Position numbers and translations under genes: made by a program | NCBI GenBank assembly: GCA_951406725.2 | Contig: OX597815.1 | Coordinates: forward strand, 71,982,001 to 72,046,000 | DNA length: 64,000 bases | DNA from: Octopus vulgaris | Lineage: Eukaryota | Direction: 5' to 3' | Notes under the pieces: generated by a model | Seen by the model: only the letters and a program-made list of their open reading frames with translations | Database searches by the model: none | Told to the model about the DNA's origin: nothing | Shown: piece by piece, positions 1-62,740 of the stretch | Numbering within the stretch: the first letter of the stretch is position 1 | Layout of the letters: each line of letters begins with the position of its first letter

Positions 1-710
1 TGACCGTTTGTTTTGGGGTCATAACCATAGACCCATGATTCATCACCCCTTATGACTGTTTTCAAAAAGTTTTCATCGTTCTTGACACACTCAAGGAGAT
101 CTTGTACAATTGAAACCCAAGTGTCATTTTGGTCAGCAGAAAGCAGTTTTAACACAAACTTAGCAGACATGCATCTCATACCCAAATCTTCAGTGACAAG
201 GGACTGAAATGAACTGTAACTAATCTGCACATCCTCTGATAACTCACAGATGGGGATATCACAATTTTCCCTCACAACTGCATGCACATCTGCGATGTTT
301 TTTTCTGTTCTGCTGATTGCAGGTCTCCCAGAACGTTCATCAATATTGACATTTTTTCGGCCTTCCTGGAAACGTCTGAACCACTCGTACACATGTGTGC
401 AACTTATATGCCCCTCTCCATACACTTTCTGCAACTTTGTGTAGGCCTCTGAGCAGGTATCACCAAGCTTTTGGTTAAATTTGATACAGATTCTCTATTC
501 AACCTTTTCTGTGATGATCAATGCGATGATCACACGTTACCCACGTTCCTTCCAATCGCTGCCGTAAACAGCGGAAGTGAGCTAGAATGTTAAAACTTAG
601 TGCACACGCACAGCAGAGTTCAAGGTCAATCTGTGTCAAGCAGCTTTACTCTGCGTGCTTTAGCTTCGTTACTACAGCAACAGTCTGGATACATATTGAT
701 CAGACCATGT
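1..710 (-). mobile_element. Mariner-type transposon, 5' part (decayed transposase)
   Basis: Minus-strand translation gives RICIKF..LG..YEWFRRFQEGR..DERSGRP..KFVLKLL..GDESWVYGYDP (mariner HTH plus first catalytic D), with an in-frame TAG near the start. A TIR-like end lies near 690-710. Confidence 0.85.
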
Positions 711-4257: not shown

Positions 4258-5140
4258 TACAGGGGTTGGACAAATTTCAAGCAAATTTATTTCAAGCAAA
4301 TTTATTTTAATATGAGGTAGAACTGCCTTTGGCAGTATTTACAGCTTGAATTCTACAAGGTATGGACTCATACAAAGTTTGAATTGTTTCCAAAGGAATT
4401 TTTGTCCATTCTTCAGCTAAAACAGTCTCCAATTCTTGTAGTGATGATGGTGAAGGATATCGACTCCTTACTTGTTTTCCTAAAATGCACCATAAATGTT
4501 CAATAATATTGAGATCTGGGGACTTTGATGGCCAGATAAGATGTTTAACTTCACTAGAATGTTCCTCGTGCCATTCAGTAGCAACTTTATCTGTGTAAAT
4601 TGGTGCATTATCATCCTGAAAGATAGCGCTTCCCTCTGGAAACAGTTCTGCAACCATAGGATGAATTTGATCAGATAAAATGCTCAAATAGTCTTGACTA
4701 TTAATTCTGCCATGAAGGGAAACCATTGGGCCGGCAGATTTCCAAGATATAACCCATCCCCCGATCATCACAGACCCTCCTCCATGCTTTACAGTTGGAA
4801 AAAGGCAGTCTGGGTCAAATGCTTCTTTTGGCTGTCTCCACATGTATATTCTGTCAGTGGTTGAAAATAAGGTAAAGGATGACTCGTCTGAGAAAATAAC
4901 ATTTTTTTCACTGCTCTAGGGACCAATTCTGTAGGTTTTTACTCCACTCTAAATGCTTTGCAACGTTTGTTTTTGAAAGTAGTGGTTTTCTAATTGCAGC
5001 CCTCCCATGAAATCCAGCTTTGTGCAGCTCCCGATGAACAGTTTTTGTGAAAATTGGGTTCTTGAGGTGGTCATTAAGCTCTGGAGTAATTTTGGGAGCT
5101 GTACTTTTGTGATCCTTTCTAACAATTCGCGTAAGAGTCA
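4258..5140 (-). mobile_element. Tc1-family transposon relic (DD34E-type)
   Basis: ORF 4307-4843: PTVKHGGGSVM..IFQDDNAPIYT..WPSKSPDLNIIEHLW. TA+CAGGGGTTGGACAAA terminus at about 4258. Confidence 0.9.
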
Positions 5141-10539: not shown

Positions 10540-13012
10540 ATCGAGGTAGTCAGAGTATGTGACAGAATACTTAAGATTAGATTAGTGCTCCATCATAGTT
10601 TAGCAACTATTATATCGGCCTATGCCCCTCAGCCAGGGCTACCCGATGGACAGAAAGACTGTTTCTATGACACCCTACTGCAAACCACCTCATTGACGAA
10701 TGACAGGGGCCTTCTCTTTGTGGCTGGTGACTTCAATGGGCATGTTGGACAACATGCTGGGGGCTTCCATGGCGTACATGGAGGCTACGGTTATGGTTCC
10801 CGCGACGAAGAGGGAACCAGGCTGCTGGAGTTCTGTGATGCGAATAGTCTTATGGTTTACAACACTAACTTCAGGAAACCAACAAGCCACCTGGTCACCT
10901 ACCGATCGGGCCGGCATACTAGCCAAATCGACTACATCCTTGCCAGAAAAAGGGAAAGATGGCTGCTATGAATGCCAAAACCTTCCCAGGTGAAGAATGT
11001 ACCCCACAACATAGACTGGTAGTTAGTGACTTTAGGATCAGGACTAAGAGGACGACTAGAAGACGACCAACATAGAGAAGAAGGGTCTGGAAGCTTAAAG
11101 ACCCTGCGAATGGACAGAGATTTAGAGACATGTTACTTGAAGCCTTTGACGAAATAGAAGGGGGTATAGCTACACACAGGGTAGAAGACAACTGGACGCT
11201 TCTAAGGGACAACCTGCTGAAAGCCACTGACCAGATCTGTGGCTGGTGCAAAGTCCCCTCAAGACCCAAAGTAACGTGGTGGTGGAACAATATTGTTGAC
11301 AGGGCTATTAGACAAAAGAAACAGGCTTGGAAGGACTGGAAGAACGGTGGTAGCAGGGAAGTGTATCAGACTGCCAGAAGGGAAGCTAGGAGGCAGGTGT
11401 ATTTAGCCAGAGGGGAAGCAGATAAGAAAAAATTTGCCAATGTTCTGCACTATGAGGATGAAAGACTTGAGGTATTTCGTGTAGCAAGACAGTGTGTGAG
11501 AGAGAATCATGACGTGGTAGGAGAGAAATGTGTTCGCAAGGATGACAGCTCACTTGCACTAAATGAGGATGCAAAGAGAGAGGTTTGGAGACGCCACTAT
11601 GAAAGGTTGCTGAATGAGGAAAATGAATGGGATAAAGAGAGTCTGCCGAATGTCGACCCAACAGAGGGACCAGCAACCCGAGTTGACAGTTCCTTAGTAG
11701 TTAAGGCAATTACAAGCATGAAAACAGGGAAAGCCCCAGGCCCATCAGGAATTACTGCAGAGATGCTCAAAATATCTGGTAGTGTCGGCTATAGCCTAGT
11801 CACCCGTATAGTTAACCAGGTGATACACGAAGGAGTCATACCCAATGACTGGTGTAGCAGCATAATAGTCAACTGCTACAAAGGTAAAGGTGACGCCCTA
11901 GATACAAATAACTACAGGGGTATCAAGCTGCTGGATCAGGTAATGAAGGTTACAGAGAGGTTTATAGCCCAACTAATTAGAGAGAGAGTTAGTTTAGATG
12001 AGATGCAGTTTGGGTTCATGCCAGGGAAAAGTACTACTGATGTTATATTCCTGGTAAGACAGCTGCAGGAGAAATACCTAGCCAAAGATAAGCCCCTGTA
12101 CCTGGCTTTTGTTGACATGGAGAAAGCCTTCGACAGGGTCTCCCGATCCCTTATCTGGTGGTCAATGAGAAAACTAGGGATAGATGAATGGTTAGTGAGA
12201 GCTGTGCGAGCCATGTACAGAGACACTGCTAGTAAGGTGAGGGTTGGCAACGAGTACAGTGAAGAATTCCGGGTAGAGGTTGGGGTCCACCAAGGTTCAG
12301 TCCTCAGTCCCCTCCTATTTATCATAGTCCTCCAGGCAATAACGGAGGAATTCAAGACAGGATGCCCCTGGGAGTTCCTCTATGCTGATGACCTAGCTCT
12401 AATTGCTGAGTCACTATCAGAACTGGAGGAGAAGTTTCAGGTGTGGAAGCAAGGATTAGAATCGAAGGGCCTTAGAATCAACCTAGCCAAAACCAAAGTC
12501 CTAATAAGTAGGAAGGTAGACAAGTCACAAACGCCTTCAGGTAGATGGCCCTGCTCGATCTGTAAAAAAGGTTTAGGTAGAAACTCTATAAGGTGCACCA
12601 AGTGTAAGCTATGGACACATAAGAGGTGCAGCAATGTCAAAAGAAGGCTCACTAGGAAAATAGTTTGTCTGTGGCAGATGCTCAGGAGCAATAAACACTG
12701 AAAATGTGCGGAGACCAACTTCTACCACGTTCCAGGGAGAAAAACTAGAAGTAGTTGATAGCTTCCGCTACCTAGGTGACCAAGTCAGTAGCGGGGGTGG
12801 GGGTGCTGAAAGTGTAACTGCTAGAGTAAGTATAGCCTGGGCAAAGTTTAGAGAGCTCTTACCCCTGCTGGTGACAAAAGGCCTCTCGCTCAGAGTGAAA
12901 GGCAGACTGTATGATGCATGTGTACGTACAGCCATGCTACATGGTAGTGAAACATGGGCTGTGACTGCTGAGGATATGCGTAAGCTTGCAAGAAATGAAG
13001 CCAGTATGCTCA
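10535..13012 (+). mobile_element. RTE-clade LINE ORF: APE endonuclease, reverse transcriptase and Cys/His finger; disrupted and truncated at both ends
   Basis: [22 protein letters not shown] (APE); KGKGD..NYRGIKLL, QFGF, AFVDMEKAFDRV, GVHQGSVLSPLLF, LYADDL (RT); CSICKK..CTKCKLWTHKRC; FRYLG. Frameshifts or stops near 10970, 11070 and 12660. Confidence 0.95.
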
Positions 13013-13042: not shown

Positions 13043-14104
13043 GTGCGAAAGTACATTTATATGCATATAGGCATCTCGATAGATGTTCAGAAATTCTATT
13101 AAGTATCTTCTCATTAGTCTACAGAATAGACAGGGATTCCTGAAGTAGAGACGGCATTTCCTGGAAATTACATTGTATGGTTTTGCATGTCTAACTATGG
13201 ACCAATTAATGTTGTACTTCAGTCGCCATATAAAAGATGTCGAATGTCCCTTATTGATTGACTTAAAGCTGGCAACATGATTATAATAACGATTTTTAAA
13301 TGAATCAACCATCTGCCCAATGTAAACATGGGCCCTCCCCTTGTGTGCATGGTACATTTATATACAAGATTTGTACTCATACAGAGCTTCATCAAAGGAC
13401 ATTTTAATTTATCTCTGCATGAGCATTTATCATATTTATTTGTATATAAGGCAGTCCCGACTCCATTTACCGGCATTTTTATCATGCTAGCTGTACCATG
13501 AGTATTTCTACTACTACAAATTGGTCGAAGTTGATGATTATCAATGTGGTTTATATCTCCTTGGTTGGTATTTAGATGCAAATGTATGCTAGATCCAGTA
13601 GGTGGGTTATTGATCCTTTGCCACATTTTGCTATTGTTTATGCAATGCATAAGCTGCTCTAAATTGGCAGAGTTGGCATAGGATACCTTCACAGTGTGTT
13701 GATTAAAAATAGCATGATACCAATTAGATTTAGGAAAACACTTGTCCAAAGCAGCAAAAAATTTTCCAGTGATCCTGGTTGAAACATACAAATCAAAAAT
13801 TGGGTTGAACCAGAGGACATCCTGATTCCTATATCTGTTGTTTGGCTTATTTGATCAAGTGTGCTGTACAGGATTGGAACAAGCAGTTGAATTACTACGT
13901 CACATGTGTCTATGAGTTTTCTTAAGTAGTTCATTGACATGACCAATTCTTTCTGGCCTGTATTCTTTATCCAAGTAATTTCCAGGAGATGCCATCTCTG
14001 CTCCGAGGAATCCCTGTCTATTCTGTGGATTAATGAGAAGATACTTAATAGAATTTCTGAATGACTATTGAAATGCCTACACGCATATAAATGTACTTTT
14101 GCAC
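13043..14104 (-). mobile_element. Penelope-like GIY-YIG endonuclease fragment with an inverted duplicate of its 3' end
   Basis: KFFAALDKCFPK..IFNQHTVKVSY, CSCRDKLKCPL..C.STNLVYKC, VYIGQ..FKNRYYNH, WSIV..AKPYN..RKCRL. Arms 13043-13171 and 13975-14104 are inverted copies. Confidence 0.8.
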
Positions 14105-14227
14105 TCTGAAAGTGACTGTGCTTTACCAGTGAGCTACCAGATGTAAACCATTCGTTTTATTATCCATTATATATATGTGTGTGTGTATACATGCATTTAC
14201 ATACATACATTCATGCATACATACATA

Positions 14228-37103: not shown

Positions 37104-38424
37104 TCCTTTTCATGAAATATTAAATTTTGGTTTCTGTCTCTCAATATCAAGTATTTAAACTGTCTTTTCAATCACAAACACTGCCAAAAAAACTAAAAGG
37201 TTTCATTCACAGGCTTTAAAGTTTGGCTCAATGACACATTGTAGTAGCAGTTGTGGGGTACGTAAAATCGATTGAATAAATTCCGATATATTTGTCTATT
37301 TATAAAAAAATGTCGGTGATGTTATTAAACTTCCTTCCTCCTCCTTCTTTTAGCACAACCATCACTACTACTACGACAATGACCACCACCATTACTTCTA
37401 CTACTACTACAACTATTACCACTACCACTACTTCTACAACTTGTTACTTGTTGTTCTTGCCATCGTTGTTGTTGTTTAGCCCAAGGTCAGCTCCGCTCAA
37501 ACAGCCCTTTGATCAAATGATTTCAAGCCTTGACCCTCTTTTTGTGAGATATCGTTAGTGCGTTGGATAAAATGCCTCGCAGTATTACCTCTAACTCTCT
37601 TAACGCCCCTTTTTTAAGTATTTGTTATGCCTAGCACCCACTTGAGTGGCGAGTGAATTATCACAACTTAACATGGATGGTGATTTATAAATTTTACTCA
37701 GAAAAATGGATTGTATAAGCTTTTAACAGTGGAATAATTAAAAAATTTGTTTTGTGTCTGGGGAGAGTCATACTGTCTTAATGCCTTATTATCTCACCAA
37801 AAAAGACAAAAGTTGTAAATTTTCTCTATGCGTTGCAAGTTAATGACTTCCCTGTGCCTGGTGAAATCTAAATTTTCTATATCAGGTTCAATGTGAGTCA
37901 AAAGAAGTCGTAAGTCTCCTTGACATATTGCAAATTATTCCGTTGTTTATATAATTACTATTATATGCAAACTTTAGTTTGTTAATTAGGTTACCTCACC
38001 GCCCCGCCTCACTACCCCCTCCAATCTAATGCCCTCCCCACTTCGACATAACCCGGCGCCCCCTTGGTGACGGTGCCGCCCATGTTGAGAACCTCTGTAT
38101 TATACGAACCAGCTAATCAAATCGTTAGATTAGATCTATTTTTTTCTCACGGCATAAATTTTTGTACTTCAGAATTATGATTGCTTGTCAAGTGACTTAA
38201 TCTGAGAACGTTTATTCAAACTGAAACCAGTTAGTCATTAAAAAAAAAAAGTACATTGCTGTGGTGATGCAGACATGGCTGTCTCAAGTTCAGTTCCAAT
38301 ACATGGTGCTTTGAGAAAATTCCTTTACAATAGACCCGAATTAACCCAGTACCTTGTGGGTGAATTTGGTTAACGAGGGAAGCCCATCGTATGTATATGT
38401 GTATGTCTGTATGTGTATACATAC

Positions 38425-39250
38425 ATGTTTCGTGCATGCGATCGGGAACCTCAATCAAGCAGCACTTTCTTGTATCCCTTTCTTCAGCATCAAACGCACA
38501 GTATCCGTTATGCCACTCTCCTTGGTAATATTTCCGATGCATATACTTCGATTTATTTATTTCCACAATAATCTGACATCCTGCAGCATCCACCCCACCG
38601 AGTTGTAGGTGTGCCCGCAAATGCTACGTCTCTCAAGAAATTACACCAACCAACCACAGTATTATTACTTATTTATTTATTGCTCACAGGGGGCTAAACA
38701 TAGAAGGAACAAACAAGGACAGACAAACAGATTAAGTCGATTACATCGACCCTAGTGCGTAACTGGTACTTATTTAAACGACCCCGAAAAGGATGAAAGG
38801 CAAAGTCAACCTCGGCGGATTTTGAACTCAGAACGTAGCGGCTGACGAAATACTGCTAAGCATTTCGCCCAGTGTGCTAACGATGCTGCCAGCTTGCCGC
38901 CTTATATTATTACTTATTTGCAGCACAAAATCATTTCGTTTGCGAATAGTCTCTTACCTACATATACATTAGCTGAATTGTAATGGGTAAAGTCAAATGA
39001 CTTTCTCAAAAAGGGAATTAGTTCATATAGTGAATTCACAAGAACAATGTCACCTCCCCGTCTGTTATTTCTCCACAGCTCATTAACTGTGCAGGACTAT
39101 TACGTCCTCCGCATGTAACTGTGTTGGCTAACATGCGTCGACATGCAAGCCATCGAATTCCCTTGTCAGTAGTGTTCGTTCCTGGGTATGGTATGTTTGT
39201 ACGGTGTACCTCAGCTGCTATTTGTGAAAAAGCAGTAGAGATCTAGAATT
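38425..39250 (-). mobile_element. Merlin/IS1016-like transposase relic interrupted by a SINE (about 38675-38903)
   Basis: IVEINKSKYMHRKYYQG..CAFDAEERDTRKCCLIEVPDR matches the VEIDESK..RKY.RG..WVFG..ER..C..V.DR pattern of ISXO2/Merlin DDE proteins. The extent beyond the SINE is less certain. Confidence 0.7.
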
Positions 39251-39898: not shown

Positions 39899-40889
39899 AA
39901 TTGAAGTACTAATTGAAAACAACTGCACTTTCCGGGGGTGGGGGAAGCAATGTTTATGATTTTATCTATAAAAGATAGGCTAAGATAGTTATATTCTCTA
40001 CATTACTTCCATTTTGTACCGGAGGTGAAAATCTCAGTTTCGTTGGTTATTCATTAAGAATGTCACCGACGAGTTTAGTTTTATTTATTTATTCATTTCA
40101 TTATTTATGCATTTTTATGAATCTTTACTTGAACTAACCTCTAAATTGTTTGAACACAACACTTCTGAGTGATTCAACATTTCCTGTTTAACGGGAAATA
40201 ATCTTCTTTAAAGCAGCTGATACAAAATCACAACTGGAATGAATATATGTGATTATAATTATTTTAGACGACAATAAACCCGAGCAATGCCAGTCACGAA
40301 TACTAGTAAATATATAATACACTAGTAATATATAATACGAAAATGTATAAAAACGTTGTGTGTGAATTTTAGACATCATGACTCTTGCACGAGATCATTG
40401 TCACTTGTTTCGTTGTTAGCATTATTAAGGTGACATTTAAATTAACTCTATTAATCAATTCTATTTTCCTACACAAAAAAACTGTACAATCAAGTACATT
40501 TATTTTGTGGCTTCTTTACACTATTTTTGGTTAGTACGGAAAAGCCATTGCTGTGTCGAGGAAGTCAGAATAAAATCGAAATATGCTCAGAGTTATCTCC
40601 CGTGCTAGCTGAAACTAAAAGGACTACATACATACATTTTATTAATTTATTATGCCTTTCTTTGAATGTAATATTTTATTAATTCCGTGTTTTCCCCTCA
40701 GCTGCTCATTATTTGTACTTCAATTTAATGTTCTCAGCATTAAAGGTTTTGCACTCACCTCAAGCAACTAAATACAACATATATTAAAAGCTTGATACTT
40801 ATTAGATTGTTCTTAAAAAGCTATAAAACTGTAAATGTGTTTGTTTTTATCTGTATTTATTTATTGACGGCTTGGTTAAAAATAGGTAA

Positions 40890-40985
40890 ATCTGATGCAA
40901 TCAATACAGTTTATTACACAGATTAATTTTTTTTATTAACTGATATTGCAAGTAACTAGTGTTCCGGTAGCGCATGTGCATTAGT
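40890..40985 (+). promoter_or_regulatory. Putative TARS proximal promoter
   Basis: TGATGCAAT (CARE/AARE) at 40893-40901, TTCCGG (ETS) at 40962, GCGCATGTGCA (NRF1-like) at 40970-40980. Confidence 0.55.
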
Positions 40986-40998
40986 ACTTTGAAACAAC

Positions 40999-41058
40999 AT
41001 GGCTGACGAAGTGCTGACGAAACCGATGGAGGAGTTGAAAGTTTCCGGAGAGAAAAAG
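40999..41058 (+). CDS. TARS1: Threonyl-tRNA synthetase exon 1a (cytosolic N-terminus), GC donor
   Basis: aacaacATGG Kozak context; MADEVLTKPMEELKVSGEKK; AAG|GCATGC is the plausible phase-0 donor before the TAA at 41074. Confidence 0.75.
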
Positions 41059-41113
41059 GCATGCAGGATTATGTAAACTTTTACACTTCTTACTAGTTTA
41101 GCAAAACTCAAAT

Positions 41114-41191
41114 ATGCTTTCCTGGACACGTCTTTCTTCGTTGTCGCAGAGAATAGGATTGCGATACGCGAAGACTTTAACTAGGGTGTGT
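41114..41191 (+). CDS. TARS1: TARS alternative exon 1b, putative mitochondrial presequence
   Basis: MLSWTRLSSLSQRIGLRYAKTLTRVC|GTGAGT; phase 0, Arg/Ser/Leu-rich, no acidic residues. Confidence 0.68.
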
Positions 41192-42258
41192 GTGAGTTTC
41201 TCGTCATTCAGTCGGCGTGTGTTGATATTGCCTCCTTAGATTTTACATACATTTATGTATATGTACATATATATGTTATACACTCTCCTTTCTGCTCGAC
41301 TTTAATTTGCGTGTGATTCCTGTAGTAGATTTAGTTATTTCAACTAACTGTTTTGCTTGGTTAATAATACTTTTGATGCTACTTCGCTCCATTTCTCTAT
41401 TCGTCTTATACTGTTATAATTCGTTCCCTCATCGTACCTGAAATATTAATTTCATTATATATATTAAAAAAGCAAGTGGGGGGGAGCAATAAGAAATACG
41501 TCCAACTTGTAACGATTTATATGTACTAATATACAACCTAAAAACACCAAAATATCAATTTTATAAGTCTTTTTTTCTTCCTTTCTCTATATCTATTGAT
41601 CAATTGATTTGCTTTTCTTTAACTTACGTGGACAGGTTTATGCTGAGGTCAGTCAAATATCTATTATGTTTAATTATGTCTTACATATTTGACTTAACTC
41701 ATCCTTTAGAGGGAAGTCTGTCTCATTCCAGCATTGTTGTTTAGTCCAAGGTCGCCCCTCATCGAATTGAACTAAGGTTAGAGACATTGAATTCCAAACA
41801 CAACTGGAATGGTCGCTATTTATTTCTTACGCCAAGTGCTCCCTAAACTTCAGAGAGAATATATAAAAAGCCACAGGTCGATGGGACTTATAAAGGGGTC
41901 TTTCAGTACATTGAATGAAAACGTTAAAACATAGTACACAGTATTAGTTAAGGCTGCACCTGAAATACGACACTCATACAAGTACATCGAAATGGTAGAA
42001 AATGCACAATGTAGAGCCACGAAGCTTGTGGTATATGAGGAACGACATGGGAAGCAGGCTTTTACCAATTTACATGGAAATATGAAAGAAGCAGTCTTTG
42101 TTTTACGATCCAGAAAATGAACCCACTGTACTCAGCAGACTGCCCCTAGCCGGAAACTCGTTAGTAAAATAGAAGGGAAAGAATTGTTTTTTTTTTTTTA
42201 AACGGAAAATATATTTCGGAACATAAACAAAAGGAAACCAACATAAAAGAATACACAT

Positions 42259-42478
42259 ACACGAGGGGTGCTGAAAAGTTCCTGGTTTTGGATAAAAGAA
42301 AATACGAGAGTATCTGTTAATTATGATTTTGCTCAGCATATTCTCCCTCTCAGATTCACACACTTACTGCAGTGGTCCTTCGGTTATTCTAAGCCCTACA
42401 AAAGAACTCGGTTGGGCTTCCACGCAGGTCTTTCGTGACACCCCTAAAACCAGGAACATTTCAGCACACCCTCGTGTG
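42259..42478. mobile_element. Mariner-type MITE
   Basis: TIRs ACACGAGGGGTGCTGAAAAGTTCCTGGTTTT / AAAACCAGGAACATTTCAGCACACCCTCGTGT. Confidence 0.8.
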
Positions 42479-45400
42479 TGTGTTTCTCGAGAGATACGCC
42501 TATCTTCGTCTTTTGTTTTACTATTAATTTCAATTATATATATAGCATAACTACAGTTTGGTGCCCCTACCCGACTCAGTTTTCTCATAACTGTCTGCAA
42601 AAAGTGCGCATTATTTAATTAGATTTTGTAGATAGGTTTTCGAAGGCGTAGCCCACAATTTAGTCGATAACGTTAATAAATTTTTAAGTAGAGTTTCAAA
42701 TTATTTTCAATACCCTCCCGGTTGTTTTTCCTCATAACACTTTTTGAAATACATATTTTTAAATGTCTTTCTACACAAATATGTTTATGGGAGTGTACAT
42801 TATATAGTTTTGATGTTTCTAATGTATAAATTAGGGTAAAAATATTATTTTTATCAACTGATATTGTCCTAGGTTTTATATGCTTTATTTTATATTAAAA
42901 AAAGAAAAAATACACGCCTTCAAAATTTACTAATTTTAAATTTTAGACTTTTCAGAATTTTTTTTTCAATCTACGTGAAACAATACAGGGATTTTAACAA
43001 TCTTTACAGTTTAGTCATATGAACATAGAAAGTGCACTTTACATACCTGCTTTAATGACATTTCCTCACTTCAATATACAACAATACATTAAAAATCGAA
43101 AGTGAAACAATATCAAATATACGATCTAAATCTAGTTCAGTGTTTTCACTTTCTAGATCATAAACTGAAAGTTTCCCATGAGAGGTTTTAAAGCAGAAAG
43201 GTGGTGGTATGATAAAAAAAAATATGCAAACTTTAATCGAAACTGATCATGAGGAAATATGCGTTTTGTGAGTCTTGAATAGTTGGAACGATCTCCAGGG
43301 AAGTTTGAGGTGAACTCAAAATCGGTGATGAATTTTTGAATGATTGGATCATGCTAGTTCACACTGTAAAGTTGTCCAGCTATAGAAACTATACAGAAGT
43401 TAACATTAGGTCCTGATGCAGTTCATTGGATGTTGTCAAACTGTCCAACTCATCCCACCTTGAAAAAAAAAGCAAAAAAATTCTGTAATAAAGGGAACAT
43501 ACATAGATGTCATGACCATCATTAAGGATTGGTGTCATAGGCATAGGCAGGCATTTTATGAGATGTCATCTTATAAATAACCATCTCAGCCTATGTTATC
43601 CAGTGTGTCCCTTCCTAAAATGATAGGTTGTGGTTTGAGGGAGACTTAACTACTATTTCTAGCTAATCAAGTGACCGCAATGAGCAAGAGTGTTAAAATC
43701 ATTTGGCTTTGTAGACTTGATTGAAGCTTAACCTAAATCCTGAACTAAGGAAGAAAACCCTACAATGTAGGTAAGCATTGTAACAACTTTATTAGCATAA
43801 AGAAAAAGAAAGAATTTTATGTACAGAGATGTGTAGGAAAACTCAATCACGTGTGTGTGTATATATATATATTTATATACATACACACTCACACAATATC
43901 ATTGAATAAGAAAATGGTACACCAATATTAATCATAACTTGAGTTGGTCTCTGACTCAATGCATGCTTGTGATAAAAGTATTTTACAGAATATTTTTAAA
44001 TAATGATAAAAATTTATCTTTATAAGATGGTGCAGGCATAACAGTGGTAAAGACATTTGCCTCTCAATCATATAGTTTTTGGCACTCCCATTGTACAGCA
44101 ACTTGAGCAAGGGACTTCTGTCACCCTGAGTCTACTAGTGTCTTGTGAGTGGATTTGGTAGATGGAAACTGTGTCCTTTGTTTTTGTATCTTTTTGTTTT
44201 GATATCATATGATGGTTATATAAAGATCATCCCTGTCGTAAAAGCAAGGAGAGATGTCATTCATTTCCAATCTCCTGTGAAAATGTGTCCAGCACTGGGT
44301 AAATATTATCTTGCTCTGAAACAAGTGGTGGTCAGCAACAGGAAAGGGCATTTGACTGTAGAAAAACTTTACCTCAAATAAACTCCAATCCATACAAGCA
44401 CAGAGAAGTGGATATTAAAATATTGTTGAGGAGGAGGAGAAGCTAGGGCCTGGACTAAACATTGTTACTGGTTGTGTTTGTTACCTTTCACATGGAGGTT
44501 GGCTTGCCTCTATGTCAAGTAGAAGAGGGAGATGTATGTATGTGTATAATCATACCAACATACTTCTGCATAGTGAAGTTATTTCTTTCTGGTGTGCGAA
44601 ACAGTCTAAAGTACTAATAAGGTGAGAAAGTGGAAGGTTTGTGTCTTCTAAACATCTTGTCACTTTCAGATATTTCATATCAATTGTTGTTGAGATAAGC
44701 TGTGATTAGACAACCCTGTGATCAAACACATTCTAGCTGTGACTAACTCATTTATTATTAAGATATATCAAAGAATATGTTATTGTCCTCTTAATTTTTT
44801 TAGGATGGTAGGATGTGATTTGAGAAGTATTTTGCTGCTATTTCTAGCATTGAGGGACCATGTAGTACCCTTTCTCCTTTAGCATTCACATTATTCTATC
44901 AAACATAATGCTTATTTATTCACATTGTTTTGTATTAACCATGCATTATTTTGTAGCTTTAAGACTTCAATGAGGTAACTTGATTTTTAGAATGATATAT
45001 GGTGTGAGAGGCCATATCTGGCCAGTTTGAACGTAAAACAGTAGAATATTTTTGGCTAGATATGGTCAGTTTAAATGCTAATGGGTTAAGTTGTAATATG
45101 TTGAGTGTGTAGAACATTGCCAACTTCTCAAGGTGAAGTACTTTTGGGTTCTGAAGAGTAAAATGTTGAGGCATAGTTTTTAGCTAGTGTTTATCACTGA
45201 TCACATACTGTTGACAAAAAAAAAACAAATATCTAAGAATCTTTTGTGAAGAGCTGTTGCAAACATAACATTGTTACACTAAAACAAACAGTTAGGTAAT
45301 ATCCTATTGAACTCTAAGGCAGCAAGCTGGCAGAATTGTTTGCACACTGTGTAAAATGCTTAGTGGCATTTCATCTGTCTGCATGTTCTGAGTTCAAATT

Positions 45401-46286
45401 CTGCCATGGTCAACTTGGCCATTCATCCTTACGGGGGTCAATAAAGTAAGTACCAGCTGAGTTCTGGAGTTCGATGTAATGAACTTGCTGGCCTAGTGCC
45501 AAAATTTGAAACCAATATTTTCTTGAAATCTTAGGAAATCTTGGCGATTCTGAAAATAAATTAAAGCATATATCCTAACTGATACTTGCAATCATCATAT
45601 GACCACTTTTCCATGCTTGCATGAGTCAGGTGGAATTTGTTGAGGTAAGTTTTCTACTGTTGTCAACCCTCAACTATTTCCAAGCAAAGTATTTCTCCTT
45701 GTTTTTCACACAAGGCTAGAAACAAACATCTCTTGTATGATGGTAAGGGTACACACAAACATACACTCATGGATTTGCAGACACACACATACATGCACAT
45801 GCTGGGCTTCTTTCAGTTTCCATCGACCAAATTCTGCTATAGCAGAAGGCACTTGCTCAAGGTGCCGCACATTGGAACTGAACCCAAGACCATATGGTTA
45901 TAAAACAAGTTTCTTAACCACTCAGTCTTTGTTTCAATTAATAGTGAATATAAAAGATTTTATTAAAATAACTGGTGTTAGGATAGCTGATGTTTAGGAC
46001 ATTAATTAGCTTAAAATTTCGATGGGTGGTTGTAATTAAGATTATTTTAAATCGAGGAGGTTGAATCTTAGAACCAGGGTTGGGTTTCAGAAGGGTTGAT
46101 AACATTCATAAGAGAAAGAAATGCAGTTGCAGTTGTATGGTTAAGGTGTTTCTCAACCACATGGTGTGGGATTGGTTCCACCGTGTATCACTTTGGGCAT
46201 GTGTCTTCTGCTACTCATATATCTCTGGGCTGACTAAAGCCTTGTCAGTGTATATGGGAGATGAAAACTGAAAGAAGCTTGCCATA

Positions 46287-46440
46287 GGTGTGGCTGTGTG
46301 GTAAGAAGTCTGCTTCCCTACCACATGGTACTGGGTTCAGTCCTATTGCATGGCACCTTGGGCAAGTGTATTCTACTATAGCTTCCGGCTGATCAAAGCT
46401 TTGTGAGTGGATTTGGAAGATGGAAACTGAAAGAAACCCA
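46287..46440 (+). mobile_element. CORE-like tRNA-derived SINE (third family)
   Basis: TGGCTGTGTGGTAAGAAG..GGTTCAGTCC..CACCTTGGGCAAGTG. Copies also at about 46133, 50583, 58538 and 63287. Confidence 0.75.
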
Positions 46441-46462
46441 TCATATATAAGTATAATTTATA

Positions 46463-46688
46463 ATAAGGGCATTGGAACGCCAACACCTGCCCGCTTGAAG
46501 TAGACCCCAAATGGGCTACAAACCACTTAAGTTATTACTCCCTTACCAAAAGATTGTATGCGAGGAAAATGGACAGAAAGGATTTCCTTACATACAACCT
46601 TGTGGTAAGGGAGTAATATCTTAAGTGGTTTGTAGCCCATTTGGGGTCTACTTCAAGCGGGCAGGTGTTGGCGTTCCAATGCCCTTAT
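46463..46688. repeat. Near-perfect long inverted repeat (hairpin)
   Basis: Arms 46463-46560 and 46591-46688: the outer 69 bp pair perfectly, with 3 mismatches over 98 bp. Confidence 0.95.
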
Positions 46689-46787
46689 AATTATATTTTA
46701 TAATTATACTTAAATATAAATTAACCATTATAGTCTTGTTAGTATGCTGGCCACTGATAAATCATTAAATAATGACTTTATCCTAAT

Positions 46788-46818
<31 letters not shown>

Positions 46819-47710
46819 CTGTGTGTATGTTGGTCTGTTTACATTCCCATAACTTAGCAGTTCAGCAAAAGGGACTGATAGAATAAGTACTGGGCTTAAA
46901 AAGAAAAGTCCTGGGCTCGATTTGTTCATCTAAAACCCTTCAAGGCAGTGCTCCAGCATGGCTGCAGTCAAATGACAGAAACAAGTAAAATAATATGTTT
47001 ATGTCCTTGCTTTAACATTGCATAACAGTTATGAGTTCCGTGAAATGGAGACAAGGTGTCACAAATATACACGCTCATATATGACAAGCTTCTTTCAGTT
47101 TTCATCAGCCAAATTCATTCACAAGGTTGTAGTACAAGTGACTTGTTTAAGGTGTCATGGATTTGGTTAGGAAGTAAACTTGTTAACCATATAGTCACGC
47201 CTATGTTTATCTGTCCTTTATAAATATCTAGCCTTTTACCAATGTTAGAAATCATTATTCAACAGTTGAATAATTCAATTATGACATGCTGTTACTATAA
47301 TCAAACACAGCTGTATGTGTCAGCTATATATATATATATATATATATGTCTTATTGAATAAAGGTTTTTGTATTTTATATTTCATTTATCTCAATGTATT
47401 TGTTGTATATTCATAATATAGTAGAAGTGAAATCATAAAAGACTTTAAACCTGACTTGTGTGCTATTATTAACATACCCAATTCAGGCAGAACAAACATT
47501 GCAATATATACATATATATTTATATTATCATCATCATCATTGTTTAACGTCTGCTTTCCATGCTAGCATGGGTTGGACAATTTGACTGAGGACTGGCGAA
47601 CCAGATGGCTGCGCCAGGCTCCAATCTTGATCTGGCAGAGTTTCTACAGCTGGATGCCCTTCCTAACGCCAACCACTCTGAGAGTGTAGTGGATGCTTTA
47701 TATATATATA

Positions 47711-47746
<36 letters not shown>

Positions 47747-50281
47747 CTGGCAATAACTTCTCTTGCAGCCTGGTGTTCTTTTGTTCATTCACTTTTACAT
47801 CTATTTTTTTTCCATGCTAGCATGGGTTAAACAAGTATGGTAAGAAAGGATCTACAAACATTGGAACTCTCAGAAGGGATGACAGGGAACCGAGACTCCT
47901 GGCAGCTTGCTGTGCTTGAGAAAGCACATCAAGCTAAGTAAAACCATGGTTGTCCTTGCATACAGGCTTATCCTCTGCATCCTTCTCCAGCTGAGCATTC
48001 CTAATCTTGCAGGCTCGTGGGTGCTGGTGCCACTTATAAAGCGTCTGTACCAGTGCCACGTAAACAACCATGCCAGTGCCGCATAAAAGCACCCAATACA
48101 CTCTGTAAAGTGGTTGGCATTAGAAAGGGCATCCAGCCATAGAAACCATGGCAAAATAGATTGGAGCCCAGACAGCTCTTCAGCTGACCAACTCCTGTCA
48201 AACTGCCCAACCTATACTAGTATGGAAAGTGGCTGTTAAATGATGATGATTGAAACTCTGTTTTACAGCTAGCTGTCCTTTCTATCTCATAACCCTCACT
48301 TTTTTTTTTGTTCAAAGTAAGGGATTCCTTTTTCATGCATCTTTGAAAGCATGAAGTGAGCGAGTGATTTGTTGATAGAAGTGACAGCAGCAACACTAGA
48401 AATTTGTATTCAAAAAATTGTTAAAATATTTTTTGTATTGTGTTTACGTGGTTCGGCAAAAAGAGGCCGATAGAATAAGTACTGGGCGATTGAATAAGTT
48501 CTGGGGTCAATTTGCTCGACTAAAGGAGGTGCTCCAGCATGGCCGCAGTCAAATGACTGAAACAAGTAAAAGAGAGAAAAGAGTATTGTAGAAGTATAAC
48601 CAATTTATCGTACAGAAACATAAACTATAAAATCTTGTGTAGACCCCACAAGGGTCATGTGGACACTGGTTGAGAAACACTGCTGTAGACAATTGTAAAT
48701 ACAATATTTTGTATTCTGGGCAGCTTAGGGTTATTTATAATTTTTGATTGTTAAAGCAGTGAGCTGGCGGAATCATTAGCTTGCCAGGTAAAATGCTTAG
48801 TGGCATTTTGTCTGTCTTTACATTCTGAATTCAAATTCCACCAAGGTTGACTTTGCCTTTCATCCTTTCAGGGTGAATGAAATAAGTACCAGTTGAGCAC
48901 TGAGGTTGATGTAATCAACTATTCCATCCCTCTTTGCAAAATTTCAGCTCTTGTGTCTCTAGTAGAAAGGAATGTTTGATCTTATTGTACTGATTGCTAC
49001 TAGGAGTATGAGTAGTTGAGCCATTTTAGTATCATTGATTCAATGCTGACTTATTTGACATCAGACATTTTAATGTTTCTCTTGTTTTCCCTTCATCTCT
49101 TTCTCTGTTTATGTGGATGAGGAGAAGGAAACTGTTTATGTCAGTCATGTTCAATTAATAAATTGTAATGTTTCTCTTTCTCTCTCTGTGAACATCTAGT
49201 TATGTTTGCATGTGTACACTCTCTCTCTCTCTCTTTCTCTCTCATCATCATCGACATATAATGTCCGTTTTTTTTGCTGGCATGGGTTGGATGGCTTGAC
49301 AGGAACTGACGAGGCCAGGGGCAACACCACATTCCATCATCAGTTTTGGCTTCGTTTCTACAGCTAGATACCCTTCCTAATGCCAACCACTTTACAGAGC
49401 ACATTGGGTGATTTTTGCAAGGCACCAGCACCCACACCAGTGCTTTTTACATGGCACCTTGATTTTAGGATCTCAATTCTGTTGTGGTGGGTAGGTCTTA
49501 CATCTATGTGCATTTGCCTGCAGTGCCAAAATATGTTGAATGTCCAGTCAATAAGGTCAAATAATCAGCATCCTAAAAACTCCACCCTGTCATATCATTC
49601 CATGCTACCAGCATTTGTTTAATTTTTGATATTTCTATTGTCAGTTATTCTCTATACTTAACTAAAATGTGAACCTCTTTCATAGACATATTATTATCTG
49701 AGGGAGTGGTCATAGCTATGAGTAGGTATTTTCTCTTCAATTTTCCAGTTTTGCTTGGTCACTTTGCAATGATTGTTCAGTTAGTTTAGTCTGGTGTATC
49801 ACAATGTAATAATGCTATTGTTTCTTTCTTTCTTTCTCTTTCTATTTATTTATTCATTAAAATCTTGCTATACTTGACAGTTTATGTGAAAGCATGTGGT
49901 TAGGGTGTTTATTGTCAGATTGTTTCTATTCTTGGACCAGGCAGTGCATTGTGTTCTTGAGCAAAAACACTTCATTTCACACTGCTCCTCTCCAATCAAC
50001 TGTAAATGAATAACCCTGCAACAGACTGGTGCCCTGTTCAGATGGAAATACTGTGATCTCAGTTTTATATCGTGACAATTGGATAACTAGCCCTCTTAGT
50101 CCTTGGACTAAAGTCAGTTCTTGTATTTTTGGTTTCAGTGAGTTTCAGGCTGAAACAGGGAAAAGAAATTTGTCTTTGTTCTTTTGATATTTTTTTAATC
50201 AAATTTCTTCCATATCTTACTTGAACTGTTTTACTGCAAATAATTATAGAAGTGTTTTTTTTTTTTTTTGTTTTTTTACAG

Positions 50282-50341
50282 GCATCTAAAAATACGAAAA
50301 AGTCAAAAGAGGATAAGAATAAGAACAATGCTTGTTCAGAG
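50282..50341 (+). CDS. TARS1: TARS exon 2 (Lys-rich)
   Basis: polyT-acag|ASKNTKKSKEDKNKNNACSE|gtaaac; 60 nt, phase 0/0. Confidence 0.8.
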
Positions 50342-50790
50342 GTAAACTTTTATTATTTCATATTTATTTTACATTTAATTTTTCCACCCTCTAAGCTTGA
50401 ATGGGAATTCTGCTAATATGGATAGGCACAGGTGTGTCTGTGTGGTTTAGGATTTATGTACTGAAATTATGTTAGACTTTGACAACATCATCAGTCTTTA
50501 TTTCTGTTCATTGATGACACAATGTGTAACTCACATTCTAATCCTGATAAAGACTTATATTGAAAATGTGTTTAAAATATAGTGACTGTGTGGTAAGAAG
50601 CTTGCTTCCCAACCACATGGTTTCAGGTTTAGTCTCACTGCATGCTACCTTGGGCAAGTGTCTTCTACTATAGCTTTGTGAGACAGAAACTGAAATAAGT
50701 CCACTGTGTGTATGTGTGTGTGTGTGTATGTTAAATAAAATGAGACAACAATGTGTGGAATTTTCAGGACATTTATAAAAGAGAAAGTTA

Positions 50791-50838
50791 GTCTTACAGC
50801 TGTTTCTGTGATATTAGGGATATCCCTTCATCAGAGAT
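50791..50838 (-). ncRNA. Minimal hammerhead-ribozyme-like motif
   Basis: UCU CUGAUGA A GGGAUAU-CCCUA-AUAUCAC A GAAAC AGCU GUA AGA; palindromic ACAGCUGU stem III. A related copy with a mutated core lies at 7525-7576. Confidence 0.6.
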
Positions 50839-51551
50839 GATGTGAGATGGTTAAATAGAGGCAAATAGTAGAGTTCAGTATAAGGAGTTATTTTAGAAAA
50901 GGATGGAAATAAGAAGTATAAAGGGAAATAAGAGAATAAAAATATATGTAGGATGTTATAGTTGCAGTTCCATTTGTGTCTGTTTGTTCCCCACTACCAC
51001 TTGACAACTGGTGTGCTTAGATCCCTGTAACTTAGTAGTTCAGCAAAAGAGACTGATAGAATAAATACCAGGCTTAAAAAAAAAGAAAAGAAAAAGTACT
51101 GGGGTCGATTCATTTGACTAAAAATTCTCCAAGGCAGTGCCCCAGAATGACTGCAGTCTAACGACTGGAACAAATAAATGATTGTACTTGGTTTAGCTAT
51201 TTCATTTCTAAGTAAAATCATGTCCCTCCCTCTAAACGCTGCCTCTCACTATGTTTGTAATCTATTTCATTGACCATCTAACAACAATACTGGATCATTC
51301 CTTCACATGTATGAGGAAGGGAAAGCTACTTACCCTTTTGATACAAGCCCAATCAAAACTCTATATTAATTTATGTTCCTAGCACCAGATTAATAACAAC
51401 AGAGTTATTTTACTAAATTTTTCATTATTTAAAAGCTTAATTAAAACAAAGGCAGTTGTGGGTAGAGCAGTAAGAAAATTTGAATTTATGACCTTGTTTT
51501 GTTAATATCTAAAATAAAAATAAAATAATTAAAACAAATTCATTGTTTCAG

Positions 51552-51733
51552 GTAAAACCAGCTCCTGATTACATCCAAACCCGACTAGATTTGTGGAATA
51601 AATGGAAGGAATCCTACACTAATTGGTTGGCAGATCAACCGAGTATAGATATTACAATTACATTGCCTGATGGTAAAGAAGTAAAGGGTCAATCATGGCG
51701 CACAACCCCCTATGAGATTGCTAAAGGAATCAG
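51552..51733 (+). CDS. TARS1: TARS exon 3 (TGS domain start)
   Basis: VKPAPDYIQTRLDLW..ITLPDGKEVKGQSWRTTPYEIAKGI; ag/gt bounded. Confidence 0.96.
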
Positions 51734-61256: not shown

Positions 61257-62740
61257 AGTGTCTGCCTTACGACACACTGAGCAAGGAGAATTTATTTTGC
61301 GGCACACCAAATAAAAATCCAGAATTTTCAGCATTGAAGAAACATATTATTTCAGTTTACAAAGAGATAAATCGAGAGAGCACTTTTCCTTTCAAGAGCC
61401 ATCGCACCTCTGTATGAGGCAGTAAGCACTTAAAATCAGAATCCATAGTTTCACATAGGGATGCAAAAAGTCTGCACCATAGGGGACGTGATCTTATGTA
61501 ATTCACCACTTTAACAGCATTGCCCTTCGTCTTCAGAAGACCATCAGGTAGAGATTTTGACACCAAAAGTTTGCAGTGAATCATGCAATGTACAATTTTA
61601 ACTTGTGAATTTTTTTGTAATACATGAGCCATGAAGCCTTTTTTTTTTTCACCTTGCATGGATGGTGCACCATCAGTGCAAATGTTAATACAAGTTTGCC
61701 ACTGCATTTCTCTCAATATGACATTTTGGTTTACCAGGTTAAAGACATCTGTTGTTCTTTCTTTCAATTCACAAGAAAAGAGAAACTGACTTATGATTTT
61801 ACCACCTCTGATGATTCACAGAAATGAAATTAGTTGAGCTTTGTTGCTGATGTCTGTAGTTTCATTGATTTGTAAGGCCCACAAGATTTTGAGTTCACTT
61901 TTTGCTTCAGGGAAATGTTTGCAGAGCTAATCATCAATGTCTCACGTAATGTCTTGAATTTTATGAGAAAGTGTGTGGGCAGACAAAGGAATGGTCTGAA
62001 TTTGTTTGGCGATTTCATCACTAATCATTGTGTCAACGATGATCTCCAAGGCTGGTAAAATTGCTTTCAGCATCAGAATATGGTTTTTTCTTCTTTACCA
62101 AAAGCTGGGCAGTCTTGTAACTAGTGATTTGAGCTTTCTTGTGAATTGAATGAAATTTCTTCAGCCTTTTTGATTGAATTTTAAAATAATTTTTTAGTAT
62201 TTCAAAGTATTCTTTTGGTTTGTCCTTATGTTGCGGATGATTTGTTATTAAATGACTTTGAAGTTTCCTGGGAACCATCGCTTCATCTGAGAGTGTTGTT
62301 AAACAAATGATACCGAGTTATCTTTCTCTGGTAATATAAAACCATATTGGATGTGATTTTCTTTATATTTTTGGTTTGATGAGGTGCACTTTTTATTCTG
62401 GTGTTCATCTTCTTTGCTATGACTCTCTTTCTCATTTTTCTGAGGTCTCGAAAAATTTGTCTATGTTTAAATCTAAAACTAAAAATCAATTAAAATTTAC
62501 ATAAAATAATTTATGTAAATTATAAATAAATCAAAAATTAAAAACTACTAGGACTACTAAACAATTTACTTCCAGATAATCCCAGTTTAAATGCAAAAAT
62601 GTAATATATTGTAGCAAAACTATATTTTACAATTTATACAATTAATTTATATTTATGCTTAAATTTTGTGAATGTTCTTGGATTGTTGTTTCCCTAAAAT
62701 CCCAAAAATATTTTTGCGGCACACAGTTTGGCAGACACTG
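61257..62740 (-). mobile_element. hAT (Buster/Charlie-like) transposon, internally deleted and decayed
   Basis: PRKLQSHLITNHP; ICTDGAPSM..VHCMIH..KVVNYIRSRPL..RLF..LC..LLPHTEVRWL.KGKVLSRF. CAGTGTCTGCC-type inverted termini. Confidence 0.9.

What the first reader, a model, noticed from the sequence alone, without database searches (positions are those of the whole stretch)
40999..41197. Compact splice switch giving cytosolic versus mitochondrial ThrRS from one gene
Seen: ATG 40999 encodes an acidic/Lys-rich N-terminus that reaches exon 2 in frame via a non-canonical AAG|GCATGC donor. If that donor is skipped, the frame stops at TAA 41074-41076. A second ATG (41114, A at -3) then opens MLSWTRLSSLSQRIGLRYAKTLTRVC, ending at a consensus GTGAGT donor in phase 0; AGG|GTGTGT at 41185 is also phase 0. 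Known: Arg/Ser/Leu-rich peptides lacking acidic residues are typical mitochondrial presequences, and some invertebrates such as Drosophila use one dual-targeted ThrRS gene. Inference: competition between a weak GC donor and a strong GT donor, or alternative start sites, sets the cytosolic/mitochondrial ratio, and the cytosolic start becomes a 25-codon uORF in long mitochondrial-form mRNAs.
Basis: partly seen in the sequence, partly recalled or inferred. Interest (0 to 1): 0.8.

Follow-up and report, generated by a model that had tools for sequence, protein, structure and literature searches.

The report
Octopus splice switch for mitochondrial targeting
Octopus has one detectable gene for the enzyme that loads threonine onto tRNA, and RNA reads from a close relative show its first exon cut at two places, giving a common form that likely stays in the cytosol and a rarer form that likely enters mitochondria, an arrangement already known for related enzymes.

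Summary
Real, with two corrections. The window holds the 5' part of the Octopus threonyl-tRNA synthetase gene, and it is the only ThrRS locus found in G000. In raw RNA reads of a congener, the first exon splices to exon 2 from the GC donor after 41058 (88, 68, 116 reads) and from the GT donor after 41185 (6, 14, 20 reads). Depth is flat across the spacer, so both forms most likely share one 5' end; the long mRNA then carries four upstream AUGs. Both proteins are already in public gene models, each labelled 'cytoplasmic'. The 24-residue presequence is identical in Argonauta and alignable across molluscs, a brachiopod and nemerteans. Mitochondrial import is inferred, not shown. The logic matches human KARS1 and zebrafish hars, and single-gene ThrRS is known in Drosophila and C. 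elegans. Verdict: new member of a known kind, modest interest.

The parts
40978..40998 (+). Inferred transcription start region and very short 5' UTR
   Evidence: No depth upstream of the 40969-40983 bin; furthest reads and a contig begin at about 40978-40993; read starts pile at 41004-41016. CpG observed/expected is 1.05-1.34 over 41000-41599 against 0.41 for the window. Exact start not mapped.
40999..41058 (+). Exon 1a coding part: 20-residue acidic N-terminus of the likely cytosolic isoform
   Evidence: Equals the start of P0001 (XP_029655750.1, CAI9717594.1) and P0043.
41059..41064 (+). Major GC 5' splice site (AAG|GCATGC) of a 9,223-nt GC-AG first intron
   Evidence: 88, 68 and 116 reads leave here into exon 2. 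Four bases are shared by donor and acceptor; of the five possible cuts only this one ends the intron in AG (read).
40999..41076 (+). 25-codon uORF in the long mRNA; AUGs 41026 and 41071 are in the same frame and share its stop
   Evidence: The stop ends 37 nt before ATG 41114.
41061..41096 (+). Second, 11-codon uORF in another frame
   Evidence: The stop ends 17 nt before ATG 41114. The G>A difference at 41096 in organisms B, C and D keeps a stop codon.
41114..41185 (+). Exon 1b coding part: 24-residue predicted mitochondrial presequence (net +5, no acidic residue, 4 Arg, hydrophobic moment 0.70)
   Evidence: Equals the start of P0039 (XP_029655742.1, CAI9717595.1), P0002/P0042/P0044 and P0003.
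41186..41191 (+). Minor GT 5' splice site (AGG|GTGTGT) used by the long form
   Evidence: 6, 14 and 20 reads plus one contig leave here into exon 2. Contigs of organisms A and D also stop matching at 41186 with 28 and 20 letters left over, which were not displayed.
41192..41197 (+). Consensus-looking GTGAGT donor with no listed use
   Evidence: No loose end listed at 41191/41192 (one row hidden). No held protein has the two extra residues. Organism B's unspliced contig lists no difference over this site.
50282..50341 (+). Exon 2, common acceptor for both first-exon forms (Lys-rich linker)
   Evidence: Loose-end consensus; joint to exon 3 in 103+95 reads of X23 and in contigs of X1 and X4.
51552..51733 (+). 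Exon 3, start of the conserved ThrRS body
   Evidence: First 60 codons are 100% identical to P0001. Further exons run past the window end to G000:C2:72055884.

Best explanation
The single detectable Octopus ThrRS gene splices its first exon at two alternative donors, giving a major acidic-start form that is likely the cytosolic enzyme and a minor form whose 24-residue leader likely targets it to mitochondria. Step 1 (shown in a congener's reads): about five of six molecules are cut at the GC donor after 41058, which joins ATG 40999 in frame to exon 2. Step 2 (shown): the rest run through the GC site and are cut after 41185. Step 3 (strongly inferred from flat depth and contig paths): both forms share one 5' end, so the long mRNA holds AUGs at 40999, 41026, 41061 and 41071, all closing 17-37 nt before ATG 41114. 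Step 4 (inferred): ribosomes reach ATG 41114 by re-initiation after the short uORFs and by leaky scanning past a cap-proximal ATG 40999, which would lower mitochondrial output below the 1-in-6 mRNA share. Step 5 (inferred): the amphipathic leader is imported and probably clipped near Arg17-Tyr18 (cleavage motif recalled, not computed), and the same enzyme body charges mitochondrial tRNA-Thr. The GC dinucleotide plausibly keeps the first donor leaky enough for the second to be used; that is untested.
For: Junction reads in 3 of 3 raw RNA runs: 88/68/116 at the GC donor and 6/14/20 at 41185. Run-through of the GC donor is 11%, 24% and 16%, pooled 16.6%, while depth in the intron at 41209-41238 is 0-1. 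Depth over 41074-41118 (11, 21-24, 22-24) is close to that over 41119-41163 (10-11, 25-26, 25-29), no start pile lies between the two ATGs, and contigs run unbroken 41033-41186 in organisms A, B and D. Both proteins are in public models for O. vulgaris/O. sinensis and O. bimaculoides. One ThrRS locus only: TIGR00418 5 of 5 matches, P0001 18 of 18, motif-2 exon 1 of 1, all in this gene. PF07973 gave 3 matches, the other two being AlaX-like and AlaRS. The leader is 24/24 identical in Argonauta while exon 2 is 11/20 and the body 623/674. A profile of 16 non-cephalopod lophotrochozoan leaders scores it 13.6 bits, reached by 1 of 2000 shuffles (1800 were scored). Paired acidic and basic N-termini occur in 9 of 10 clusters and in 6 of 10 (the other 4 are singletons); I chose these clusters, so this is not a random sample. 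Precedents: PMC7600831 (passages, KARS1), PMC5608375 (passages, hars), PMC4826098 (section 7), PMC10196762 (sections 1, 3.1-3.2, 4).
Against: No localisation test and no TargetP/MitoFates score; the presequence call rests on composition, moment and conservation. The raw reads come from a congener (five amino-acid differences in exons 2-3), three samples of one study, about 6% of each run, unstranded, tissue unknown. The second lay was swamped by intronic repeats, so the first-intron joints were not among the rows shown. The genome searches score only top candidates exon by exon; one search used a stricter first look, and one search listed no second AlaRS, so divergent paralogues can be missed. 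Four upstream AUGs, two with G at +4, are a heavy load for re-initiation, and a stop 109 nt before a junction could trigger decay. All three donors match the U1 consensus at 5 of 9 positions, so simple pairing does not explain the choice. The region shows no unusual fold (z = -0.27).
Confidence: 0.82

Rival explanations
1. The productive mitochondrial mRNA comes from a second transcription start between the uORFs and ATG 41114, and the long read-through form is a poorly translated by-product.
For: It would remove four upstream AUGs. Depth rises by about 20-30% between 41074 and 41150 in X22 and X23. The region is CpG-rich and promoter-like.
Against: No rise in X21. No pile of read starts between 41059 and 41114. 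Most 1b depth is already present at 41074, and contigs of three organisms cross the GC donor into exon 1a. A gradual rise is expected near any 5' end.
Confidence: 0.09
2. The long form is unproductive splicing (a uORF/NMD substrate that tunes cytosolic ThrRS), and mitochondria get ThrRS another way, such as cryptic import of the 1a form.
For: The uORF stop lies 109 nt upstream of the 41185 junction; four upstream AUGs; minor abundance.
Against: The 1b frame joins exon 2 in phase. Its peptide is identical in Argonauta and order-conserved across Lophotrochozoa. The 1a N-terminus has five acidic residues in its first 24.
Confidence: 0.05
3. A separate mitochondrial ThrRS gene exists but was missed, and the 1b form is redundant or has another job.
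For: Searches in the 2.8-Gb genome are candidate-limited, and no second AlaRS was listed.
Against: Four searches found ThrRS matches only in this gene. A mitochondrial paralogue as close as human TARS2 is to fly ThrRS (50.6%, PMC4826098 Table 1) should match the 57-residue motif-2 query unless introns split it. Drosophila and C. elegans have one gene.
Confidence: 0.04

Closest known systems
Human KARS1 (LysRS), as described in PMC7600831 (passages; the original Tolkunova 2000 paper was not read)
   Same: One gene, two compartments, by splicing. Including extra 5' sequence stops the exon-1 frame and supplies a downstream start with a targeting leader.
   Different: KARS1 includes or skips a separate exon 2. 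Here one first exon is extended by 127 nt through alternative donors, the major one being GC.
Zebrafish hars (PMC5608375, passages)
   Same: The first start in exon 1 is quickly followed by a stop in the included segment, and the second start gives the mitochondrial form, shown there by imaging.
   Different: A 309-nt cassette exon, and a different enzyme. Localisation is not shown for octopus.
C. elegans tars-1 (PMC10196762; abstract and sections 1, 3.1-3.2, 4)
   Same: A single ThrRS gene serves cytosol and mitochondria, and the mitochondrial form is the minor product.
   Different: One mRNA with two in-frame ATGs, mitochondrial start first, and alternative splicing ruled out by the authors. 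In octopus the cytosolic start is first, the two starts are out of frame, and two spliced mRNAs exist.
Drosophila ThrRS CG5353 (PMC4826098; passages and section 7)
   Same: A single gene with two polypeptides, one with a predicted mitochondrial leader.
   Different: The passages read give a prediction only and no mechanism. Exon layout was not compared here.
GC-AG first introns (PMC7242645, abstract only)
   Same: GC-AG introns are reported as enriched in first introns and in alternatively spliced genes.
   Different: That study is a statistical survey of human and mouse and, by its abstract, does not concern organelle targeting.

Membership tests
Threonyl-tRNA synthetase (eukaryotic TARS1 type) | Full-length match to the thrS family with TGS, editing, catalytic and anticodon domains | tested here: met
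   P0001 and P0039 score 663.5 bits on TIGR00418, cut-off 383.65; Pfam PF02824, PF07973, PF00587 and PF03129 are listed for P0001.
Single-gene dual-localised aaRS | No separate gene for the mitochondrial enzyme | tested here: met
   one ThrRS locus. These searches give a floor and do not prove absence.
Single-gene dual-localised aaRS | Two products that differ only at the N-terminus, one with presequence features | tested here: met
   P0001 against P0039; composition and moment.
Single-gene dual-localised aaRS | The leader-bearing product is imported into mitochondria and charges mitochondrial tRNA | not testable with these tools
   Needs imaging, import or charging assays; no targeting predictor was available.
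KARS1/hars-type splice switch | Two spliced mRNAs from one gene | tested here: met
   Both junctions in 3 of 3 raw runs of a congener.
KARS1/hars-type splice switch | The cytosolic start is closed by a stop in the mitochondrial mRNA, upstream of a second start | tested here: met
   TAA 41074-41076; reads and contigs are continuous from exon 1a across it. No single read spanning cap to junction was seen.
KARS1/hars-type splice switch | The leader lies on a separate cassette exon | tested here: not met
   The 1b segment is contiguous with exon 1a, and alternative donors are used instead. It works like KARS1 but has a different exon layout.
C. elegans tars-1 / GARS1-type two-start mRNA | Both starts in frame on one mRNA | tested here: not met
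   ATG 40999 and ATG 41114 are in different frames with a stop between them.
GC-AG intron | Intron begins GC, ends AG and is removed in RNA | tested here: met
   272 junction reads; only the GC..AG register fits the four-base ambiguity.

The most novel reading that the evidence does not exclude
A splice-based ThrRS switch with an ancient, sequence-conserved leader is the ancestral arrangement in Lophotrochozoa and perhaps Bilateria. In octopods the GC donor and four upstream AUGs form a selected two-layer dial (splice choice, then re-initiation or decay) that sets mitochondrial ThrRS dose and shifts with tissue or condition. The 24/24 identity with Argonauta and the low nucleotide divergence of the whole first exon (1 of 188 against at least 12 of 242 in exons 2-3, p = 0.008) would then reflect regulatory constraint.
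Probability: 0.25. Interest if true: 0.55.

Novelty: new member of a known kind. Interest (0 to 1): 0.3.

Why it matters
It identifies the likely source of mitochondrial ThrRS in cephalopods and suggests that many invertebrate 'cytoplasmic isoform' ThrRS models with a basic leader are really the mitochondrial form. PMC10196762 (Discussion) says nearly all eukaryotes use two ThrRS genes and that C. elegans, using two starts on one mRNA, is the first case with a resolved mechanism. The octopus gene points to a second, splicing-based route, and paired N-termini in molluscs, a brachiopod, echinoderms and insects suggest it is common. It is also a compact test case for a dominant GC donor and for re-initiation past four AUGs. 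It would not surprise a synthetase specialist.

Tried and rejected
Donor 41191 as the working 1b donor: rejected. Skipping to exon 3 at 51552: loose ends match exon 2. GT donors after 41040 (AAA|GTTTCC, phase 0) and after 41072 (TAT|GTAAAC, phase 2): no loose ends listed. An RNA structure hiding a donor: fold z = -0.27, 79 of 200 shuffles as stable; no RNA holder listed on record (coded runs marked as guesses); not used as evidence either way. on the 10.9-kb stretch: tables were filled by intronic repeats and the first-intron joints were not among the rows shown; only the exon 2-3 joint, the contig pieces and the difference list were used; my by-eye boundaries for some later exons were off by one and broke the frame, so only exons 2-4 were used, and that comparison covers the first 60 residues. 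(PDB) gave 1 weak hit and none for the two other PF07973 loci; one search identified them. Earlier-findings look-ups returned nothing. Literature: (octopus or cephalopod ThrRS) gave 0 papers; searches listed none on a mollusc ThrRS splice switch, judged by title and abstract start. The library covers only CC-licensed PMC and bioRxiv, and no supplements were read. First-exon genomic layout in other animals could not be compared, because no other eukaryotic genome was available.

Full report
Identity. The first 60 codons of exon 3 (51552-51731) are 100% identical to P0001, named threonine--tRNA ligase of Octopus vulgaris / O. sinensis. The window is G000:C2:71982001-72046000, and the gene continues to about C2:72055884. 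P0001 and P0039 both pass the TIGR00418 thrS cut-off.

Observation. ATG 40999 gives 20 codons ending at AAG|GC. Read-through stops at TAA 41074-41076 after 25 codons. ATG 41114 lies in another frame, and the donors after 41185 and 41191 are both phase 0 to exon 2 at 50282. Spliced in a script, the 1a model equals the first 60 residues of P0001 and P0041, the 41185 model equals P0039, and the 41191 model equals none of the proteins then held. So both isoforms are already in public gene models (XP_029655750.1, XP_029655742.1), both named cytoplasmic.

RNA evidence. One search listed 24 runs; I laid 7 of them. Three raw RNA-seq runs of organism B (X21-X23, one study, about 6% of each read) were laid on 40849-41298. 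Organism B is a congener with five amino-acid differences in exons 2-3. Reads left the stretch after the GC donor 88, 68 and 116 times and after 41185 6, 14 and 20 times, in both cases continuing into exon 2. No loose end was listed at 41191/41192; one low-support row was hidden, so a trace use is not excluded. The depth fall in the 41179-41193 bin (0.45, 0.57, 0.50 of the previous bin) fits an end at 41186 (0.53), not 41192 (0.93). Reads running through the GC donor were 11%, 24% and 16% of reads there (pooled 16.6%), and depth at 41209-41238 was 0-1, so these are mostly mature long-form mRNA. The GC donor is therefore the major site, about 5:1. The junction counts at the two donors are not directly comparable, because they sit at different distances from the 5' end; the run-through fraction is the better measure.

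One start or two. Depth across the spacer is nearly level with depth over 1b, read starts pile only at 41004-41016, and contigs run unbroken from 41033 to 41186 in organisms A, B and D. In organism C the listed contig is unspliced (41033-41471) and says nothing on the junction. This favours one 5' end with alternative donors. A 20-30% rise in two of three runs leaves room for a minor internal start. The long mRNA then has four upstream AUGs (40999, 41026, 41061, 41071), all closing 17 or 37 nt before ATG 41114. The only difference in organism B between 40999 and 41186 (41096 G>A) keeps the second uORF's stop. How ribosomes reach 41114 is inferred: re-initiation after short uORFs, and leaky scanning past an ATG that seems to lie only 10-20 nt from the cap.

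The leader. It has net charge +5, no acidic residue, 54% Arg/Ser/Leu and a hydrophobic moment of 0.70; it is the only one of 849 comparable ATG-started stretches in the window that meets all of its own values (post hoc thresholds). It is 24/24 identical in O. bimaculoides and Argonauta hians, while exon 2 is 11/20 and the body 623/674 identical to Argonauta. At 92% background identity 24/24 is not itself exceptional, but it is for a leader beside a fast-changing linker (p = 0.0002 against exon 2). Unnamed proteins from assembled runs, 86% identical to P0039 or clustered with such proteins and probably other cephalopods, carry near-identical leaders and matching acidic partners. Limpet, abalone, snails, oyster, clams, scallops, chiton, Lingula and two nemerteans have leaders of about 24 residues with a shared pattern. 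A profile built from 16 of them, with no cephalopod, scores the octopus leader 13.6 bits; 1 of 2000 shuffles reached that (1800 scored). The training set was hand-picked from basic, acid-free N-termini. At the DNA level the first exon differs from organism B at 1 of 188 bases (2 of 195 if 40992 is included) against at least 12 of 242 in exons 2-3 (p = 0.008 for the first count). A CpG-rich, probably unmethylated region could explain this without selection.

Second gene. TIGR00418 gave 5 matches, P0001 18 and the motif-2 exon 1 (at E <= 1), all in this gene. PF07973 gave 3: this gene, an AlaX-like locus on C17 and an AlaRS locus on C4. These searches are candidate-limited, and no second AlaRS was listed, so absence is likely but not proven.

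Comparison. Including extra 5' sequence that stops the cytosolic frame and opens a leader-bearing one is the human KARS1 and zebrafish hars logic (PMC7600831 and PMC5608375, passages), done there with a cassette exon. Single-gene ThrRS is predicted in Drosophila (PMC4826098, passages and section 7) and shown in C. elegans, where two in-frame starts on one mRNA are used and splicing was excluded (PMC10196762, abstract and sections 1, 3.1-3.2, 4). GC-AG introns are reported as enriched in first introns and alternatively spliced genes (PMC7242645, abstract). Paired acidic and basic N-termini appear in 9 of 10 clusters and 6 of 10, so the pattern is widespread in invertebrate gene models, though their exon layouts were not seen. 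I found no paper on cephalopod ThrRS (0 papers) and none on a mollusc ThrRS splice switch among the listings, within a library limited to open-licence papers.

Verdict. It works like KARS1/hars and differs in using alternative donors on one exon with a dominant GC site. Import, translation of the long mRNA and regulation of the ratio are untested. New member of a known kind; interest 0.3.

Noticed in passing
window 41004-41016: Read starts pile up just downstream of ATG 40999. This is probably 5' loss in library preparation over a very short UTR, but some mRNAs might start at the in-frame ATG 41026; unnamed proteins P0064 and P0178 begin at the equivalent second Met.
   Followed up: partly
window 40962-40979: TTCCGG and GCGCATGTGC just upstream of the start resemble ETS and NRF-1 sites typical of housekeeping and mitochondrial-gene promoters (motifs recalled, not tested).
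   Followed up: no
G000:C4:33906888-33906983 (L009) and G000:C17:40405243-40405320 (L008): The only other tRNA_SAD matches are one AlaRS and one AlaX-like gene. No second AlaRS was listed: either it was missed or AlaRS is also single-gene in octopus.
   Followed up: partly
P0017, P0183, P0188, P0179, P0194 (scallop, abalone, snail, chiton, Lingula): Several lophotrochozoans have a third, short alternative N-terminus joining at about the same point.
   Followed up: no
P0052, P0055, P0016 (insects): Long insect ThrRS isoforms carry a 60-90 residue N-terminal extension resembling the N-terminal domain of elongation factor 1-beta (resemblance recalled, not tested).
   Followed up: no
window 46460-46700: A long inverted repeat in intron 1, seen by eye, MITE-like.
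   Followed up: no
window 11076-12698 (+), 3-494 (-), 4310-4915 (-), 13222-14156 (-), 38234-38623 (-), 61360-61815 (-): Long open stretches that look like retroelement and DNA-transposon remnants (labels from recalled resemblance, no family scan run).
   Followed up: no
window 42000-51100: The first two introns are dense in dispersed repeats that attract very high read depth from other loci.
   Followed up: no
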